DNA of 64,000 nucleotides from an uncultured Acidobacteriota bacterium (GTDB lineage Bacteria; Acidobacteriota; UBA6911; RPQK01; JAPXNP01): contig CAVZRV010000027.1 in the NCBI GenBank assembly GCA_963777605.1, forward strand, positions 288,001 to 352,000. The letters are read 5' to 3'. The notes under the pieces are model-generated. The model ran no database searches. It saw nothing but the letters and a program-made list of their open reading frames with translations, and had not been told where the DNA came from. Of this stretch, positions 46,445-50,872 are shown one piece after another. Positions within the stretch are counted from its first letter, which is position 1, and every line of letters begins with the position of its first letter. The translations under genes were made by a program, and so were the position numbers.

Positions 46445-47170
46445 TCATTCAAATCGCGAGAGGTTTGCGGTAGCCCTGTCCAGAAGAAAGAGAGTGATCA
46501 TCGGCGAAGCGATCAAGACAATCGATGCACACAGCAGCGGAAGCAGAGTCGGGCCTGTTGATGATGACTGCGATCCGAGGAAGTTCACGGCTACCGCGAG
46601 GAGAATGCCACACCCGAATTGGATCCCTATCCAGAAGGCGTCGCGACCCGGACTCCTCTCGGGGCGTATCACCGCCCAGAACTGGAAGGCAATCAAGGGC
46701 ACGATGACGTAGAGGTTGGAGACAACCGCGAGGATACTGAACAGTCCCCTCCCCATCCAGGGCAATTCCGGAGCCGCTCCGGCCATCCCCAGTACCAGGG
46801 AAGGGCTCCCCGCTATCAACAGCACTGCCGACGACGAGATCCCCCACAGCGAATATCCGAGGATGATTTCGAAGGGATGTCGTGAGAGCAGGCGAAGCCA
46901 GGACAGACTCCCGCCGTCCCTGGCCTGAAGAGTACCGAGAAAGACCATCAGCAGGCTTGCGGGGAGCGCCGCCTCAAACCCGAGACTCTGGATCCGAGCC
47001 GAAATCAGGGGGTCTCCGAAATCAGGGATCAGCCCGGACAAAGGTATCCACAAAAGTTCGATGCTCGCAGCCACCAGGAGCGGGGTCCGCAACGACCTGA
47101 ACTGGACCCAGGCAATTCTCCTGGAACGCTCCCACCATCCAGTTCGAATGCCTCTCGGCAAGATGTCCAT
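46445..47170 (-). CDS. Multi-TM membrane protein, probable ABC-2-type permease
   Basis: About 6 hydrophobic helices; SLSWLRLLSRHP motif shared with neighbour; tight operon spacing. Confidence 0.55.
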   Translation of the reverse strand: MDILPRGIRTGWWERSRRIAWVQFRSLRTPLLVAASIELLWIPLSGLIPDFGDPLISARIQSLGFEAALPASLLMVFLGTLQARDGGSLSWLRLLSRHPFEIILGYSLWGISSSAVLLIAGSPSLVLGMAGAAPELPWMGRGLFSILAVVSNLYVIVPLIAFQFWAVIRPERSPGRDAFWIGIQFGCGILLAVAVNFLGSQSSSTGPTLLPLLCASIVLIASPMITLFLLDRATANLSRFE

Positions 47171-47173
47171 GAC

Positions 47174-47851
47174 TCAGGCCCCGTCTCTCGTGAAGCGGGC
47201 TCCCAATTCGACGGCGAGAACGGCAAAGCCCAGGCCGGCTGCACCCGCCAGTATGACTGCCCCGAATGCCTCGCCGGGCGAAAGCGTCGGGATCTCCAAC
47301 GACAGGGCGCCATTTGCCTCTCCCAGCATCAGGGCGGCACTCGCAAACATCTCGATCGAGCAAAGCCCCAGGATCACCGCCAGGTAACCACGCCTCACCG
47401 CAACTACCAGGACAAAAACCACGCAGCCCAGGATCCACCCTGCTGCCGTCATGACAAACCAGACGGCAATGCGGAGCGAGGATCCGCCAATCGTGTCATG
47501 AACCAGCCAGCCCGGAAGAAGAGCCAGGCTGAAGAGCCCGTAGAAGAGGAATGAGACCAGCAGCTTTGCCGACACGAGGGCGCGAGGATGGGGCGACAGC
47601 AGCCGCAGCCAGTTCCAGGTCTTCCTTGTCTTTTCCCGGAAGATCACCAGTGTCGGGAAGACCACCCCCGCCAGGACACAAAGCGACGCCGTCACGGCCA
47701 GAAGGAGCGGATCGGCAGTGTCGCCAAAGAACACCAGGGCGAGGCATCCCCCGACCGCCAGCAAAGCCACGGGCAGTAGCGGGAGCCCCAGTTCGACCAG
47801 GTCCTTTCTCAATATCCTCAGCACCGATCGCACCATGGTCATCCCCACCAT
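47174..47851 (-). CDS. ABC-2-type permease
   Basis: ILRKDL; REKTRKTWNWLRLLSPHPRALVSAK motif; 6 TMs. Confidence 0.75.
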   Translation of the reverse strand: MVGMTMVRSVLRILRKDLVELGLPLLPVALLAVGGCLALVFFGDTADPLLLAVTASLCVLAGVVFPTLVIFREKTRKTWNWLRLLSPHPRALVSAKLLVSFLFYGLFSLALLPGWLVHDTIGGSSLRIAVWFVMTAAGWILGCVVFVLVVAVRRGYLAVILGLCSIEMFASAALMLGEANGALSLEIPTLSPGEAFGAVILAGAAGLGFAVLAVELGARFTRDGA

Positions 47852-48538
47852 CTACTGGTCGGCCGGATAATGACTCCAGAACCAGTCGGCAATCCCGTCC
47901 TCACCCACTTCGGCGGCCGGAGTGTCCCCAACGATCCGCCCTCTCTTGATCAGCACATAACGGGAGGATAAAGGGGTCAGGTCCTCGAACACGTGACTCG
48001 ACACGATCACTGCGCAGGAGGAGCGCTCCCGATGGTCCGAGACAGCCGCTGAGAATTCCCGCTTGGCCACCGGGTCCAGTCCTGCTGTCGGCTCGTCCAG
48101 CAGAAGCAGAGGTGGGTCATGGGCCAGCGCGCAGATGAGTCCCAGCTTGATCTGGTTGCCCCGCGACAACTCCGCGTATTTCAAGCTGAGCCTCAGTTCG
48201 AGCCGTTGCGCAAGGGCGACGGCGTAACCACGGTCCCACCCGGAGTAGAAGCCGGCCACGAATTCGAGCACGTCATAGCCCTTCATCCAGTCGTAGATAT
48301 CGAGCCGATGCGGAAGATATCCCACCCTGCCGCCGCTTTCACCCAAACGACGTTTCAGTTCCCCGCCCGTCGGGCTCCGGAGTCCGGCCGCCATCTCCAG
48401 AAGCGTGGTCTTGCCGGCTCCATTTTCACCGAGTAACCCCACGACCTCGCCATCTCCAACCGACAGATTGAACGGACCGACACGGATACCGTTGGGGTAG
48501 GTCTTTTCCAGTTCAAGACACTTGAGAATGGTCGTCAT
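47852..48538 (-). CDS. ABC transporter ATP-binding protein
   Basis: Walker A GENGAGKTT; LSRGNQ; Walker B LLLLDEP; SSH. Confidence 0.95.
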   Translation of the reverse strand: MTTILKCLELEKTYPNGIRVGPFNLSVGDGEVVGLLGENGAGKTTLLEMAAGLRSPTGGELKRRLGESGGRVGYLPHRLDIYDWMKGYDVLEFVAGFYSGWDRGYAVALAQRLELRLSLKYAELSRGNQIKLGLICALAHDPPLLLLDEPTAGLDPVAKREFSAAVSDHRERSSCAVIVSSHVFEDLTPLSSRYVLIKRGRIVGDTPAAEVGEDGIADWFWSHYPADQ

Positions 48539-48550
48539 CCCAAATCCCTC

Positions 48551-49180
48551 TCAAAATCCGCCGATCCTTACGACTACCTCATACGCCAGGTAGGGACCGG
48601 CAACACAGACCACTGACCGCCGCCAGCGAATGTTCAGGACGGCAGAAGCTGCCCCTGAAGCGAGCACCAAGTACCAGATCTTTGCGGCGACATGAAAGAG
48701 CCCAACCGTCTGGAGGACCCAACTGTGCTCCATCGCGGCGGCAACCGCTCCGGGGTCGAGGGCTTGCCCGGAATCCAGCCCGTCGGGAGGATTCAATGCC
48801 AGCAGAACAAAGCCTGCAGCACCCGCCAGAACGAACGGAAGGTAGGCATACCCAATCAACTCGACCAGCTTCCGGAAACGGATTTCCGCATTCCAGAAGA
48901 GAATCGCCGCGGTACCGATGACCCCGGCAATCAGCGGCCACGTCAGTACGTACACAACCAGGAACAGGAGACTCTGCACCAACCCGAAGCGCTCGAGAAA
49001 CTCCTGCATAGCTTCCGGAAGATTTGACGAGAAGGCGCGTGAAACCAGGTTGACCGAACCGGAGGCCAGACCGCCTGCGACGACTACCAACGCCGCAGGA
49101 ATGGTCCACTCGAACGGGCGGGTGACTCGGGACCGAAAGAAGCCGTTCGGATCGATTAGAAAGGAGAGGGCGTCCGACAT
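48551..49180 (-). CDS. Yip1-family membrane protein
   Basis: GGAGG RBS before ATG 49180; LIDPNGFF, W.LIAG, FRKLVELIGYAYLP; 5 TMs. Confidence 0.8.
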   Translation of the reverse strand: MSDALSFLIDPNGFFRSRVTRPFEWTIPAALVVVAGGLASGSVNLVSRAFSSNLPEAMQEFLERFGLVQSLLFLVVYVLTWPLIAGVIGTAAILFWNAEIRFRKLVELIGYAYLPFVLAGAAGFVLLALNPPDGLDSGQALDPGAVAAAMEHSWVLQTVGLFHVAAKIWYLVLASGAASAVLNIRWRRSVVCVAGPYLAYEVVVRIGGF

Positions 49181-49728
49181 AGTTCCTCCACGATGATCCC
49201 AATCGTGACTTCGGCTTCGATGAACGCGGCCAACACCGTCAACCCCATTGCCAAGCCGAAGGCCACCGGGAGAACCCTCAGGGCTCCAGGTTGAAAGAAC
49301 GCTCCGCCGCCAAGAAAGGTGCCGGTGAAACGGGGGCCGAGAAAGCCGATCCCCGCCGCCAGCCAGAGCCCGCCCAGTTCCATGGAATGCGGCGCCGAAG
49401 CCCAGAAGATTTGCAACGGTTCCAATCCACCCTGCCAGGCCGCGCCGGCCACCGCCCCAAAAACAAATCCAGACCCGGCCACCGTCATGAAAGTTGTAAT
49501 CCCAAAAGTAAAAAGCCCCAGAGCGGCAAGAAGCACCACCAGTGAGTTGACCTTGAGAATGGCCAAGAAAGAAGGGGCAATGATCAAGGGAAGAAGCGGC
49601 GAGGTGGTCGGGATCGAGTCCTTCGGGAAATGGGAGGTTATCAGGATTCCGCAAGAGCAAGCTGACATCCACAAGAGCAAAGCCCACAAGAATCCATTAC
49701 CCAAACTCCGATTAAGGACACACCTCAT
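49156..49728 (-). CDS. SpoIIM / DUF95 membrane protein
   Basis: FLAILKVN, SGFVFG, APHSMEL, LAAFIEAEVT match the IxxN...G...PHxxE...AAxIE pattern. Confidence 0.85.
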   Translation of the reverse strand: MRCVLNRSLGNGFLWALLLWMSACSCGILITSHFPKDSIPTTSPLLPLIIAPSFLAILKVNSLVVLLAALGLFTFGITTFMTVAGSGFVFGAVAGAAWQGGLEPLQIFWASAPHSMELGGLWLAAGIGFLGPRFTGTFLGGGAFFQPGALRVLPVAFGLAMGLTVLAAFIEAEVTIGIIVEELCRTPSPF

Positions 49729-50214: not shown

Positions 50215-50321
50215 AATCACTTCTCCTTCATTCTCGCCCGAAGTAGGAGTGCAAAAACTCCGGACTCAAAAGAGCTCCGTGCGTATCAGCCTCAGCACTA
50301 GTCCATTCATTTGAGATCAGC

Positions 50322-50354
50322 GGACGCGGCAATTGGGGATGGACTACCGCGTCC
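50322..50354 (-). terminator. Stem-loop after the peptide gene (partial terminator or mRNA stabiliser)
   Basis: GGACGCGGUAGU/AUUGCCGCGUCC 12-bp stem; G-U pairs work only on the minus strand; no U-tract. Confidence 0.6.
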
Positions 50355-50388
50355 TGGTTGAAAAAGAACAAGATAGTGGACCGGTGAT

Positions 50389-50646
50389 CTAGACTGCGAC
50401 TGCAAACCCTGCAGCCCACCCGGCAGGAGTACACACCAAAGTGCCGGCTGCGATTCCCCATAGTGTCGAGTGCAGGGCACCGGTCGTGCCCAAGATCAAT
50501 CCCGCCTCGGCAGAACCTCTATCGGACCTGGCGCAAAGGTAGCCGATCCCCACCCACATTTTTCCATCCATGACTCCGACCTGGCCGAGCGCCAGGGTCG
50601 AGAAACAGGCCAGCAGCAGCACCGCCGCCATCAGTCTTCGCTTCAT
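50389..50646 (-). CDS. 85-aa secreted hydrophobic peptide, putative circular-bacteriocin-like precursor
   Basis: AGGAGGAGG RBS; MKRRLMAAVLLLACFSTLALG leader; Gly/Ala-rich core ending ...PAGWAAGFAVAV; heads the SpoIIM-Yip1-ABC operon. Confidence 0.75.
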   Translation of the reverse strand: MKRRLMAAVLLLACFSTLALGQVGVMDGKMWVGIGYLCARSDRGSAEAGLILGTTGALHSTLWGIAAGTLVCTPAGWAAGFAVAV

Positions 50647-50810
50647 CTCGATCCTCCTCCTGAATCCGACCGGGAGAACCATTCATTCGCCTCTCCCGGC
50701 CCATCACCGGGCCTCTCCGGCCCGGCGGTTCGATCCCGAGGCCTCAGGGCTGTCTCAATCTTCGACGTCGGATCCGCGCCCGGCACCGACCGGGCAACGC
50801 CGTCCCGGTT

Positions 50811-50872
50811 ACCCTATCCTCAGTCCTTTCAACTGTCCAGCGCGGAATGCGCCGATTGCGCCAACTGCGCCG
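50811..50872 (-). promoter_or_regulatory. Putative promoter of the peptide operon with 9-bp direct repeats abutting -35
   Basis: Minus strand TGGACA-17 nt-TAGGGT; plus strand CCAGCGCGG AATGCGCCG ATTGCGCCA ACTGCGCCG. Confidence 0.55.

What the first reader, a model, noticed from the sequence alone, without database searches (positions are those of the whole stretch)
46445..50872. Putative circular-bacteriocin-like RiPP cluster (peptide, 4-TM, SpoIIM, Yip1, ABC ATPase, two permeases) in a probable Gram-negative acidobacterium
Seen: seven co-oriented genes, the last five overlapping or within ~12 bp, headed by a small hydrophobic peptide with a very strong RBS and a downstream stem-loop. Established: SpoIIM/DUF95 plus ABC ATPase and membrane proteins (often Yip1) is the hallmark of head-to-tail cyclised bacteriocin clusters (AS-48, circularin A, gassericin A), characterised in Firmicutes. 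Inference: a new family of cyclic membrane-active peptides in a diderm. No outer-membrane exit protein or As-48B-sized membrane protein is visible, so maturation or target location may differ. Cyclisation itself cannot be shown from sequence.
Basis: partly seen in the sequence, partly recalled or inferred. Interest (0 to 1): 0.9.

Follow-up and report, generated by a model that had tools for sequence, protein, structure and literature searches.

The report
Circular-bacteriocin-type gene cluster in an acidobacterium
An acidobacterial genome carries a small hydrophobic peptide gene with the same helper genes that Gram-positive bacteria use to make ring-shaped antibacterial peptides, and the peptide belongs to a previously unnamed family.

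Summary
Seven co-oriented minus-strand genes lie at 46445-50646: an 85-aa precursor behind AGGAGGAGG, a 4-TM protein, a divergent SpoIIM/DUF95, Yip1, an ABC ATPase and two permeases.

The SpoIIM call is weak by Pfam alone (24 bits, cut-off 26.9). It is secured because 72 of 72 aligned homologues match PF01944, and by a profile match to the SpoIIM of the plantacyclin B21AG cluster (92.8%).

The peptide matches no Pfam family and no solved structure, but it is not an orphan. Homologous peptides sit directly upstream of SpoIIM-like plus Yip1-like genes at 9 other Acidobacteriota loci. A profile search found 28 further peptides, and the same genome holds a second, diverged cluster.

All have a positively charged, hydrophobic leader and a 51-56-aa Gly/Ala-rich core with a fixed C-terminus. 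That build and chemistry match group ii circular bacteriocins.

Only 3 of 10 loci have an adjacent ATPase, none has an outer-membrane component, and precursor homology to known circular bacteriocins is undetectable. Cyclisation is inferred, not shown.

Verdict: a new variant of a known kind.

The parts
50389..50646 (-). Precursor peptide gene (85 aa). It has an n-region MKRR, an uncharged h-region of 17 residues, a short polar linker, and a conserved 56-aa Gly/Ala-rich core (MWVG...AVAV) with two Cys.
   Evidence: ORF and translation. Homologues lie upstream of SpoIIM-like genes at 9 other loci. 28 further database homologues at E<=0.001. Leader analysis. Core properties.
50653..50661 (-). Shine-Dalgarno AGGAGGAGG, 6 nt upstream of the ATG
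   Evidence: read directly from the sequence
50322..50354 (-). Hairpin (12-bp stem, 9-nt loop) between the peptide and 4-TM genes. It has no U-tract and may act as an attenuator or stabiliser (inference).
   Evidence: RNA fold of 50215-50395, z = -1.9; not listed by the terminator scan
49789..50214 (-). 141-aa four-segment membrane protein; candidate immunity protein (inference)
   Evidence: Hydropathy; no Pfam or NCBIfam family. A protein of 103-141 aa and similar build occupies the same position in L006, L022, L024, L026 and L027, at only 15-20% identity. L024 has extra copies.
49156..49728 (-). Divergent SpoIIM/DUF95 family membrane protein (190 aa)
   Evidence: PF01944 24 bits, below the 26.9 cut-off. 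71 homologues at E<=0.001. All 72 aligned sequences match PF01944. N61, G71, G76, P113, H114, E117, G128 and E171 are nearly invariant. hhalign to the plantacyclin-cluster SpoIIM gives 92.8%, E 4e-7.
48551..49180 (-). Yip1-domain membrane protein (209 aa); its start overlaps the SpoIIM-like gene by 25 nt
   Evidence: PF04893 47.1 bits. A Yip1-like gene follows the SpoIIM-like gene at all 9 related loci.
47852..48538 (-). ABC transporter ATP-binding protein (228 aa, no membrane domain)
   Evidence: PF00005 72.3 bits. 28% identity, E 1e-34, to the 227-aa ATPase of the plantacyclin cluster.
47174..47851 (-). Six-segment membrane protein, weak ABC-2 permease match
   Evidence: ABC2_membrane_4 24.4 bits, below the cut-off of 27; hydropathy; no BLASTP similarity to the plantacyclin ABC-2 permease
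46445..47170 (-). Second membrane protein (241 aa), presumed second permease subunit (inference from position)
   Evidence: ORF, hydropathy, no family match; not conserved at the other loci

Best explanation
This is a bacteriocin-type production and immunity cluster built on the same machinery as Gram-positive head-to-tail cyclised (circular) bacteriocin clusters. It is closest in build to the group ii (gassericin A / plantacyclin) type.

Shown:
- The 85-aa precursor has a positively charged, hydrophobic leader and a 51-56-aa neutral, very hydrophobic Gly/Ala-rich core whose C-terminus is fixed in all relatives.
- It is always followed by a SpoIIM/DUF95 protein and a Yip1 protein, usually with a small four-segment membrane protein in between.

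Inferred:
- The leader takes the precursor into the inner membrane.
- SpoIIM with Yip1 removes the leader at the polar|hydrophobic-aromatic junction (GK|MW here) and handles or releases the core. The core most likely is joined head to tail (my odds for the ring itself about 0.4).
- The 4-TM protein protects the producer.
- The ABC ATPase with its two permeases adds export and/or immunity, as accessory ABC systems do in known clusters.

How the peptide would pass the outer membrane is unknown.
For: 1. Architecture. Precursor, small membrane protein, SpoIIM, Yip1, ABC ATPase and ABC-2-like permease are tightly coupled. Paper passages describe these components as characteristic of circular bacteriocin clusters.

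2. SpoIIM membership. 72 of 72 aligned sequences match PF01944. hhalign to the SpoIIM of pB21AG01 gives 92.8%, E 4e-7, over 135 columns including the PH..E and AA.IE motifs.

3. Conserved linkage. Of 12 SpoIIM-like loci fetched (L006, L020-L030), 9 carry a family peptide directly upstream and a Yip1-like gene directly downstream. The other 3 had the weakest SpoIIM matches, E 2.8e-7 to 9e-6. A second diverged cluster lies in the same genome.

4. Peptide family. 28 further members at E<=0.001, none with a Pfam domain, and the named ones are from Acidobacteriota.

5. Precursor build.
- 36 of 36 rows have a net-positive n-region and an uncharged stretch of 14-26 residues.
- In 31 of 31 aligned sequences the conserved block starts with L/F/M/I followed by W/F/C/Y.
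- All 31 end at the same alignment column in G/L/A/V/M.
- Core length is 51-56 aa, GRAVY 0.86-1.44, net charge -5 to +3.
- Published group ii values are 58 aa, GRAVY about 1.0, charge -2 to +2, leaders 22-33 aa.
- The plantacyclin precursor read from pB21AG01 has the same build: 33-aa leader with a charged n-region and a 17-residue uncharged stretch, an N|IVW junction and a Gly/Ala tail.

6. Accessory-gene behaviour. The SpoIIM subfamily was found in 11 of 400 other sampled genomes of the phylum, of which 8 carry the module. It was found in 3 of 75 other genomes in the order. With Yip1 as the query it was found in 0 of 15 genomes of the same family. Transposases adjoin 4 of 9 loci and one splits the SpoIIM gene. 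L024 has extra 4-TM gene copies.
Against: - No detectable homology of the precursor to known circular bacteriocins. Pfam matched none of the 10 peptides at E<=0.01, and the weaker rows are unrelated families. The PDB sequence profile gave 1 chance-level hit at E 0.5. hhalign to plantacyclin gave probability 0.2%. BLASTP gave nothing.
- An ABC ATPase is adjacent at only 3 of the 10 module loci (window, L021, L023), although the literature treats it as obligatory.
- No large As-48B/CirB-type membrane protein is present in the window.
- No outer-membrane component is in the cluster, and none of the genome's OEP matches lies on this contig.
- SpoIIM is a broad family with members outside bacteriocin clusters (L029, L030). 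The control genomes ring in E. coli and in archaea.
- The role of DUF95 is itself unsettled. One passage reports circular leucocyclicin Q accumulating inside cells without it. Another proposes it as protease and cyclase.
- The linker between the hydrophobic leader stretch and the conserved block varies from about 5 to 15 residues. This would also fit plain signal-peptidase cleavage giving a linear product.
- The AlphaFold models are of low confidence (pLDDT 64 and 59), and Foldseek found no PDB match.
Confidence: 0.55

Rival explanations
1. A Sec-exported linear peptide. Signal peptidase I removes the leader, giving a linear glycine-zipper-like peptide of about 60-66 aa that inserts into membranes as a linear bacteriocin or toxin. 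The 4-TM, SpoIIM, Yip1 and ABC proteins serve only as immunity or removal devices. No ring is formed.
For: - The leader looks like a classical signal peptide in 36 of 36 rows, with small-residue sites such as TLA|L, SLA|A and AMA|S (read).
- The linker length before the conserved block varies.
- 7 of 10 loci have no adjacent ATPase, which fits export by the general Sec system.
- DUF95 and Yip1 proteins are also credited with immunity or transport roles in the papers read.
- Yip1 proteins also occur in clusters of leaderless, linear bacteriocins (search listing).
Against: - The group ii circular precursor of plantacyclin has the same signal-peptide-like leader and is nevertheless cyclised.
- The strictly fixed C-terminus and the conserved polar|hydrophobic-aromatic junction in 31 of 31 sequences are not needed for a merely secreted peptide.
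- In the papers read, SpoIIM is reported as common to all circular clusters. I saw no linear bacteriocin cluster described with SpoIIM.
Confidence: 0.3
2. Not an antagonism system. The small protein is a structural subunit or substrate of a membrane complex (SpoIIM, Yip1, 4-TM) that serves envelope or membrane homeostasis. The ABC transporter is a neighbour with a function of its own.
For: - SpoIIM and Yip1 are broad families of unknown biochemical function found far beyond bacteriocin clusters (control genomes; L029 and L030).
- No activity data exist.
- No outer-membrane exit is encoded.
- The cluster GC equals the genome GC.
Against: - Patchy distribution: 0 of 15 genomes in the same family, 3 of 75 others in the order, 11 of 400 others in the phylum.
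- Two diverged copies lie in one genome.
- Transposases flank 4 of 9 loci and one locus is disrupted by an insertion sequence.
- The peptide and 4-TM sequences diverge fast, and L024 has extra 4-TM copies. These traits fit a dispensable, competitive function.
- ABC transporters of two different kinds were recruited at the same position: ABC-2-like here, DUF5687 in L021 and L023.
Confidence: 0.12
3. The small ORF is not a gene, and the arrangement is a chance juxtaposition of membrane protein genes.
For: The peptide alone gave no homologue in the first word-based search and matches no Pfam family.
Against: - Homologous ORFs lie at the same position at 9 loci with conserved reading frame, start region and stop position.
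- 28 further database proteins match at E down to 1.6e-22.
- The RBS is strong.
Confidence: 0.02

Closest known systems
Group ii circular bacteriocin clusters (gassericin A, acidocin B, plantaricyclin A, plantacyclin B21AG; compared here with pB21AG01, NZ_CP025732)
   Same: - Gene set and sizes match. Precursor 85 vs 91 aa; SpoIIM/DUF95 190 vs 157 aa, homologous by hhalign at 92.8%; ABC ATPase 228 vs 227 aa, 28% identity; ABC-2-type permease 225 vs 214 aa; plus small hydrophobic proteins.
- Precursor build matches: charged n-region, uncharged leader stretch, polar residue before a hydrophobic-aromatic core start, Gly/Ala-rich tail, no C-terminal extension.
- Core chemistry matches: neutral, GRAVY about 1.
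   Different: - No detectable sequence homology of the precursor or of the permease.
- The Yip1 profile does not match PlcB.
- The small membrane protein is 141 aa with four segments, not a 54-aa immunity peptide.
- The core is 51-56 aa, not 58.
- The host is a diderm acidobacterium, not a Firmicute.
- Most related loci lack the ATPase.
Group i / Bacillus-type circular bacteriocin clusters with YIP1 (cerecyclin, altitudin S, pumilarin)
   Same: Precursor + SpoIIM + YIP1 family protein + ABC transporter, described as characteristic components (passages).
   Different: Those peptides are cationic (pI about 10 or more) with 60-82-aa cores. Many of those clusters also have a large membrane protein, or an M48 peptidase in the altitudin S cluster. 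Neither is seen here.
Class II microcins and double-glycine-leader bacteriocins of Gram-negative bacteria (recalled, not fetched)
   Same: Small Gly-rich hydrophobic peptides made by diderms, with an ABC exporter and an immunity protein.
   Different: No double-glycine leader is visible in the peptides (read). The ATPase has no membrane or peptidase domain match. No membrane-fusion or TolC-type gene is in the cluster.
YknWXYZ of Bacillus subtilis (Yip1-type YknW with an ABC exporter protecting against the SDP toxin; function recalled)
   Same: A Yip1-family membrane protein next to an ABC exporter. The NCBIfam YknW model gives a weak match (19.5 bits, cut-off 110).
   Different: The match is far below the cut-off. 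There is no membrane-fusion protein here, and SpoIIM and a precursor peptide are present.

Membership tests
Circular (head-to-tail cyclised) bacteriocin gene cluster | Precursor peptide gene clustered with a DUF95/SpoIIM gene and an ATP-binding protein gene (mining criterion of PMC8534725, passage) | tested here: met
   All three are present and co-oriented in the window. Across the family the ATPase is adjacent at only 3 of 10 loci.
Circular (head-to-tail cyclised) bacteriocin gene cluster | Precursor homologous to a known circular bacteriocin family | tested here: not met
   No Pfam family, no meaningful PDB sequence hit, hhalign to the plantacyclin precursor 0.2%, BLASTP none.
Circular (head-to-tail cyclised) bacteriocin gene cluster | Peptide bond between the first core residue and the C-terminal residue of the mature product | not testable with these tools
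   Needs mass spectrometry. Compatible traits only: fixed C-terminus, hydrophobic first and last residues in 31 of 31 sequences.
Circular (head-to-tail cyclised) bacteriocin gene cluster | Core of about 58-70 aa, helical, starting with a hydrophobic residue, no C-terminal extension | tested here: inconclusive
   The conserved block is 51-56 aa, or 58-67 aa if only a signal peptide is removed. It is predicted helical, but at pLDDT 59-64. The true cleavage site is unknown.
Circular (head-to-tail cyclised) bacteriocin gene cluster | Antibacterial activity and dedicated self-immunity | not testable with these tools
   No experiment was possible. The 4-TM protein is only a positional candidate.
SpoIIM / DUF95 (PF01944) | Score above Pfam's gathering cut-off | tested here: not met
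   24.0-24.2 bits against 26.9.
SpoIIM / DUF95 (PF01944) | Homology to accepted members with conserved family motifs | tested here: met
   71 homologues at E<=0.001. 72 of 72 aligned sequences match PF01944, best E 2.4e-26. Invariant N61, H114, E117, G128 and E171 in the 20-row alignment. hhalign to an annotated SpoIIM gives 92.8%.
Yip1 (PF04893) | Score above the gathering cut-off | tested here: met
   47.1 bits against 28.6, covering positions 3-164 of 173.
ABC-2 type exporter | ABC ATPase plus ABC-2 family permease | tested here: inconclusive
   The ATPase is clear (72.3 bits). Permease 1 scores 24.4 bits, below 27, and permease 2 has no family.
Thiazole/oxazole-modified peptides (SagB-dependent) | SagB-type dehydrogenase together with a cyclodehydratase acting on the precursor | tested here: inconclusive
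   A SagB-domain gene lies about 850 nt upstream (92.6 bits). It is absent from the other module loci; its only tblastn match was at the non-module locus L030. I did not search for a cyclodehydratase.

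The most novel reading that the evidence does not exclude
The four-gene core (leader-bearing peptide, 4-TM protein, SpoIIM, Yip1) stands without any adjacent ATPase at 7 of 10 loci. It may be a self-sufficient maturation machine of a diderm. On this reading the leader delivers the precursor through the general secretion route, and SpoIIM (with Yip1) both cuts the leader and closes the ring at the outer face of the inner membrane. 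This would give the smallest natural system yet for identifying the long-sought cyclase of circular bacteriocins, and the first such peptides from Acidobacteriota.
Probability: 0.27. Interest if true: 0.85.

Novelty: new variant of a known kind. Interest (0 to 1): 0.68.

Why it matters
Circular bacteriocins are prized for their stability, and the enzyme that closes the ring is still unknown after three decades (passages).

In the mining papers I read, predicted producers were Firmicutes (6,925), Actinobacteria (2) and Thermotogae (1). My searches found no paper linking circular bacteriocins or SpoIIM to Acidobacteriota: the 5 listed of 6 papers held both terms only in passing, one search found 0 papers, and one search found 1 unrelated paper. 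The supplementary taxon tables of those papers were not visible to me.

A family of about 38 peptides in a diderm soil phylum, with a stripped-down SpoIIM-Yip1 core, would widen the known range of this chemistry. It would also offer a minimal system for testing whether SpoIIM is the protease and cyclase.

If the product proves to be linear, the finding still defines a new bacteriocin-like peptide family and a conserved peptide-SpoIIM-Yip1 module of unknown mechanism.

Tried and rejected
- The word-based homologue search with the peptide alone found only itself.
- Two metagenome scans with the SpoIIM-like protein and with a two-row alignment found no relative.
- tblastn of the SpoIIM-like protein against plasmids gave no match.
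- Rfam found nothing in the window, and there are no tRNA genes.
- The promoter scan found 0 sites in 45800-51600.
- Two AlphaFold2 runs on the mature peptide, with 10 and 31 rows, gave pLDDT 64.2 and 59.0 with three helices. Foldseek against the PDB gave 0 matches. The fold is therefore not usable as evidence.
- Complex prediction of SpoIIM-like with the mature peptide gave no verdict (score 0.01, mark 0.32). It is no evidence either way.
- For sequencing runs, none was listed and no RNA holder was listed.
- The Yip1 profile against PlcB of pB21AG01 gave no similarity. Permease 1 against the plantacyclin ABC-2 permease gave none.
- A lipoprotein reading of the leader was rejected. A Cys after a small residue occurs in only a few members and there is no Cys in the L024 leader (read).
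- A double-glycine-leader or class II microcin reading was rejected: there is no GG motif, and the ATPase has no peptidase domain.
- The SagB gene, the B12 radical SAM gene and the excisionase-type HTH gene next to the cluster are not conserved at the other loci. I do not count them as parts.
- I considered that permeases 1 and 2 might be a split DUF5687. Pfam gave no such match.

Full report
**The observation.** On the minus strand of the window lie seven co-oriented ORFs. They are an 85-aa peptide (50389-50646), a 141-aa membrane protein (49789-50214), a 190-aa protein (49156-49728), a 209-aa protein (48551-49180), a 228-aa protein (47852-48538), and two membrane proteins (47174-47851 and 46445-47170). 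The peptide's ATG is preceded at 6 nt by AGGAGGAGG (50661-50653). The 181-nt spacer after the peptide gene holds a hairpin with a 12-bp stem at 50322-50354. The spacer as a whole folds at z = -1.9 (8 of 200 shuffles as good). The hairpin has no U-tract and the terminator scan did not list it. The cluster GC (0.590) equals the genome's (0.588). There are no tRNA genes and no Rfam matches in the window.

**Family assignments.** Pfam gives Yip1 at 47.1 bits (cut-off 28.6) and ABC_tran at 72.3 bits. It gives SpoIIM at only 24.0 bits (E 4.2e-5, cut-off 26.9, covering model positions 43-162 of 163), ABC2_membrane_4 at 24.4 bits (below 27) for permease 1, and nothing useful for the peptide, the 4-TM protein or permease 2. 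NCBIfam adds only a weak YknW-family match for the Yip1 protein (19.5 bits, cut-off 110).

The weak SpoIIM call was tested further. An exhaustive HMMER search of 1.84 billion representatives gave 71 proteins at E<=0.001. All 72 aligned sequences, query included, match PF01944 at E<=0.001 (best 2.4e-26). N61, G71, G76, P113, H114, E117, G128 and E171 are nearly invariant. A 20-row profile of the subfamily matches the annotated SpoIIM of the plantacyclin B21AG plasmid pB21AG01 at 92.8% probability, E 4e-7, over 135 columns. The gene is therefore a divergent SpoIIM/DUF95 member, although it fails Pfam's own threshold.

**The host.** The genome (6.73 Mb, 53 contigs) has five Omp85 matches and 33 OEP-domain matches, none of them on the window's contig. 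Named relatives of the peptide and of the SpoIIM-like protein are Acidobacteriota MAGs.

**Is the peptide linked to SpoIIM and Yip1 elsewhere?**
- The peptide alone found nothing in the word-based search.
- The Yip1 protein was not found in 15 genomes of the same family.
- A genome scan with a five-row SpoIIM alignment found one MAG locus (L006).
- The same alignment hit 11 of 400 other sampled genomes of the phylum at E<=1e-5, and 3 of 75 other genomes of the order at E<=1e-8.

I fetched 16-18 kb around all of these. BLASTP of the seven window proteins against every ORF of the 12 loci found peptide homologues in 7 of them (E 1.9e-14 to 5.6e-4). Each lies directly upstream of the SpoIIM-like gene. 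Two more loci (L026, L027) carry a diverged peptide of the same build at the same place. The three remaining loci had the weakest SpoIIM matches. L029 and L030 are generic SpoIIM contexts. L028 has two other small hydrophobic ORFs upstream of a bona fide SpoIIM (72 bits).

A Yip1-like gene follows the SpoIIM-like gene at all nine loci, by BLASTP to the window protein or by Pfam at E 1.3e-5 to 1.9e-4, below the cut-off. A small four-segment membrane protein lies between the peptide and SpoIIM genes in the window, L006, L022, L024, L026 and L027, but at only 15-20% identity. The three loci of one other genus (L020, L021, L023) lack it.

An ABC ATPase follows only in the window, L021 and L023. 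In L021 and L023 it is paired with a 508-559-aa DUF5687 protein (97-105 bits) rather than ABC-2-like permeases. L020 keeps only a DUF5687 fragment. No paper in the library holds the word DUF5687.

**A second cluster in the same genome.** Searching the window's own genome with PF01944 revealed a second weak match on contig C10. There a leader-bearing small peptide, a Yip1-like protein, a SpoIIM-like protein (22.4 bits), a thioredoxin-like protein with a CTNC motif, an ABC ATPase (102 bits) and an ABC-2-like permease lie in one row. No closer paralogues of the window's genes exist in the genome apart from ABC ATPases.

**The peptide family.** A profile of the ten syntenic peptides found 28 further database proteins at E<=0.001 (down to 1.6e-22). 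None has a Pfam domain, and the few that are named are hypothetical proteins of Acidobacteriota. They fall into two subfamilies. One is like the window's peptide. The other has a conserved ...LCVNPWL... block and two cysteines.
- In 36 of 36 rows (some duplicated between loci and database entries) the N-terminus has net positive charge, followed by 14-26 uncharged residues. In 23 of 36 a Gln follows.
- A linker of about 5-15 residues then leads to the conserved block.
- In 31 of 31 aligned sequences that block starts with L/F/M/I followed by W/F/C/Y, and is preceded mostly by N (13) or K (5).
- All 31 end at the same alignment column, in G/L/A/V/M, and the block is 51-56 aa long.
- GRAVY is 0.86-1.44, net charge -5 to +3, pI 4.05-11.5.
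- The window's core is 56 aa, net charge 0, GRAVY 0.86, with two Cys.
- No Pfam family matches any of the ten peptides. A PDB sequence profile search gave only a chance-level hit (E 0.5).

**Comparison with what is known.** I read passages only, found by term search, in these papers.
- PMC8534725 mines circular bacteriocins by requiring precursor + DUF95 + ATP-binding protein. It found them in Firmicutes (6,925), Actinobacteria (2) and Thermotogae (1), and lists a YIP1 protein in the cerecyclin cluster.
- PMC8659200 calls Yip1 a common occurrence.
- The altitudin S preprint calls SpoIIM, YIP1 and ABC genes characteristic components.
- PMC6131525 tabulates group ii peptides: leaders 22-33 aa, cores 58 aa, pI 3.9-9.5, charge -2 to +2, GRAVY about 1.0. 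It says every cluster has a SpoIIM gene.
- PMC7452424 lists the seven plantacyclin genes with their sizes.
- On mechanism, PMC7132975 cites accumulation of circular leucocyclicin Q inside cells lacking DUF95. PMC13463998 proposes DUF95 as both leader protease and cyclase, and states that the mechanism is unresolved.

I fetched pB21AG01. Its 91-aa precursor has a 33-aa leader with three basic residues and a 17-residue uncharged stretch, an N|IVW junction and a Gly/Ala-rich tail. That is the same build as the acidobacterial peptides. The signal-peptide-like leader is therefore no argument against the circular reading.

Homology, however, is not detectable. hhalign of the peptide profile against the plantacyclin precursor gives 0.2% and BLASTP gives nothing. 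The ATPases share 28% identity (E 1e-34, 228 vs 227 aa), which any two ABC ATPases might. The permeases and the Yip1/PlcB pair show nothing.

**Interpretation.** The conserved unit is peptide, (4-TM), SpoIIM, Yip1, with ABC systems of two different kinds added at the same position in different lineages. Several traits fit a dispensable competitive function such as a bacteriocin with immunity rather than housekeeping:
- patchy distribution;
- two diverged copies in one genome;
- transposases next to 4 of 9 loci, and one inside the SpoIIM gene;
- extra 4-TM gene copies in L024;
- fast divergence of the peptide and the 4-TM protein.

The machinery and the precursor's build place it nearest to group ii circular bacteriocins. 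I therefore hold that the cluster makes a leader-bearing hydrophobic peptide that is processed and handled by SpoIIM and Yip1. The 4-TM protein is the candidate immunity factor, and the ABC system is an accessory exporter or immunity pump. That the product is a ring is an inference from analogy. I put the ring itself at about 0.4 and the overall reading at 0.55.

The main rival (0.3) is a Sec-exported linear peptide with the same genes acting only in protection. The variable linker and the missing ATPase at 7 of 10 loci speak for it. A non-antagonistic membrane complex (0.12) is not excluded.

**What failed.** Structure prediction of the mature peptide was of low confidence (pLDDT 64.2 and 59.0) and found no structural match. 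The complex prediction gave no verdict. No sequencing run was listed. The supplementary tables of the mining papers, which list all predicted producers, could not be seen. My statement that no acidobacterial case is in print rests on the main-text passages and on the searches.

**Verdict.** This is a new variant of a known kind. It uses circular-bacteriocin-type machinery with an unnamed peptide family in a diderm phylum where none has been described. Its minimal core could make the cyclase question testable.

Noticed in passing
L033 4705-8301 (= G000 contig C10, about 297705-301301): A second, diverged cluster in the same genome. It holds a leader-bearing small peptide, a Yip1-like protein, a SpoIIM-like protein (22.4 bits), a thioredoxin-like protein with CTNC, an ABC ATPase and an ABC-2-like permease. 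Its third-position GC is lower than its neighbours'.
   Followed up: partly
window 51497-52096 (-): A 199-aa SagB-family peptide dehydrogenase domain protein (TIGR03605, 92.6 bits, cut-off 78.4). It is co-oriented and about 850 nt upstream of the peptide gene. It is not present at the other module loci; its only tblastn match was at the non-module locus L030. No cyclodehydratase was looked for.
   Followed up: partly
window 50700-51497: About 800 nt between the SagB-like gene and the peptide gene with no convincing ORF on the minus strand, no Rfam match and no sigma-70-like promoter hit. Its content is unexplained.
   Followed up: no
L024 9271-9891, 11343-11624, 13283-13465: Extra copies or fragments of the 4-TM gene lie downstream of the module, around a Mutator-family transposase (354.6 bits). 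They are reminiscent of orphan immunity genes.
   Followed up: partly
L025 7993-10221 (-): The SpoIIM-like gene is split by a 445-aa DDE transposase (PF13701, 480 bits). The peptide and Yip1-like genes remain intact.
   Followed up: partly
L028 7271-9438 (-): Two tandem small hydrophobic ORFs (69 and 67 aa, both ending in FIL) lie upstream of a clear SpoIIM (72.3 bits) and a 237-aa membrane protein with no family. This may be a further peptide family using the same machinery.
   Followed up: no
L021 9794-11473 and L023 9832-11358: Large DUF5687 membrane proteins (PF18940, 97-105 bits) are paired with an ABC ATPase directly after the Yip1-like gene. L020 keeps only a fragment. No paper in the library mentions DUF5687.
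   Followed up: partly
window 43908-46336 (+): A B12-binding radical SAM protein (653 aa; weak matches to HpnJ and to a RiPP radical SAM model, far below their cut-offs) and an excisionase-type HTH protein are convergent with the cluster. Neither is conserved at the other loci.
   Followed up: partly
peptide leaders, alignment A9 and the table: A Gln directly follows the uncharged leader stretch in 23 of 36 rows. Subfamily B has a conserved QGN|LF junction and two conserved Cys. Their meaning (processing site, pyroglutamate, disulfide) is unknown.
   Followed up: no
database peptides P0103, P0104, P0105: Three family members have Lys/Asn/Ile-rich leaders, suggesting low-GC hosts outside the sampled Acidobacteriota. 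P0104 carries a C-terminal extension that the others lack, possibly a frameshift or assembly artefact.
   Followed up: no
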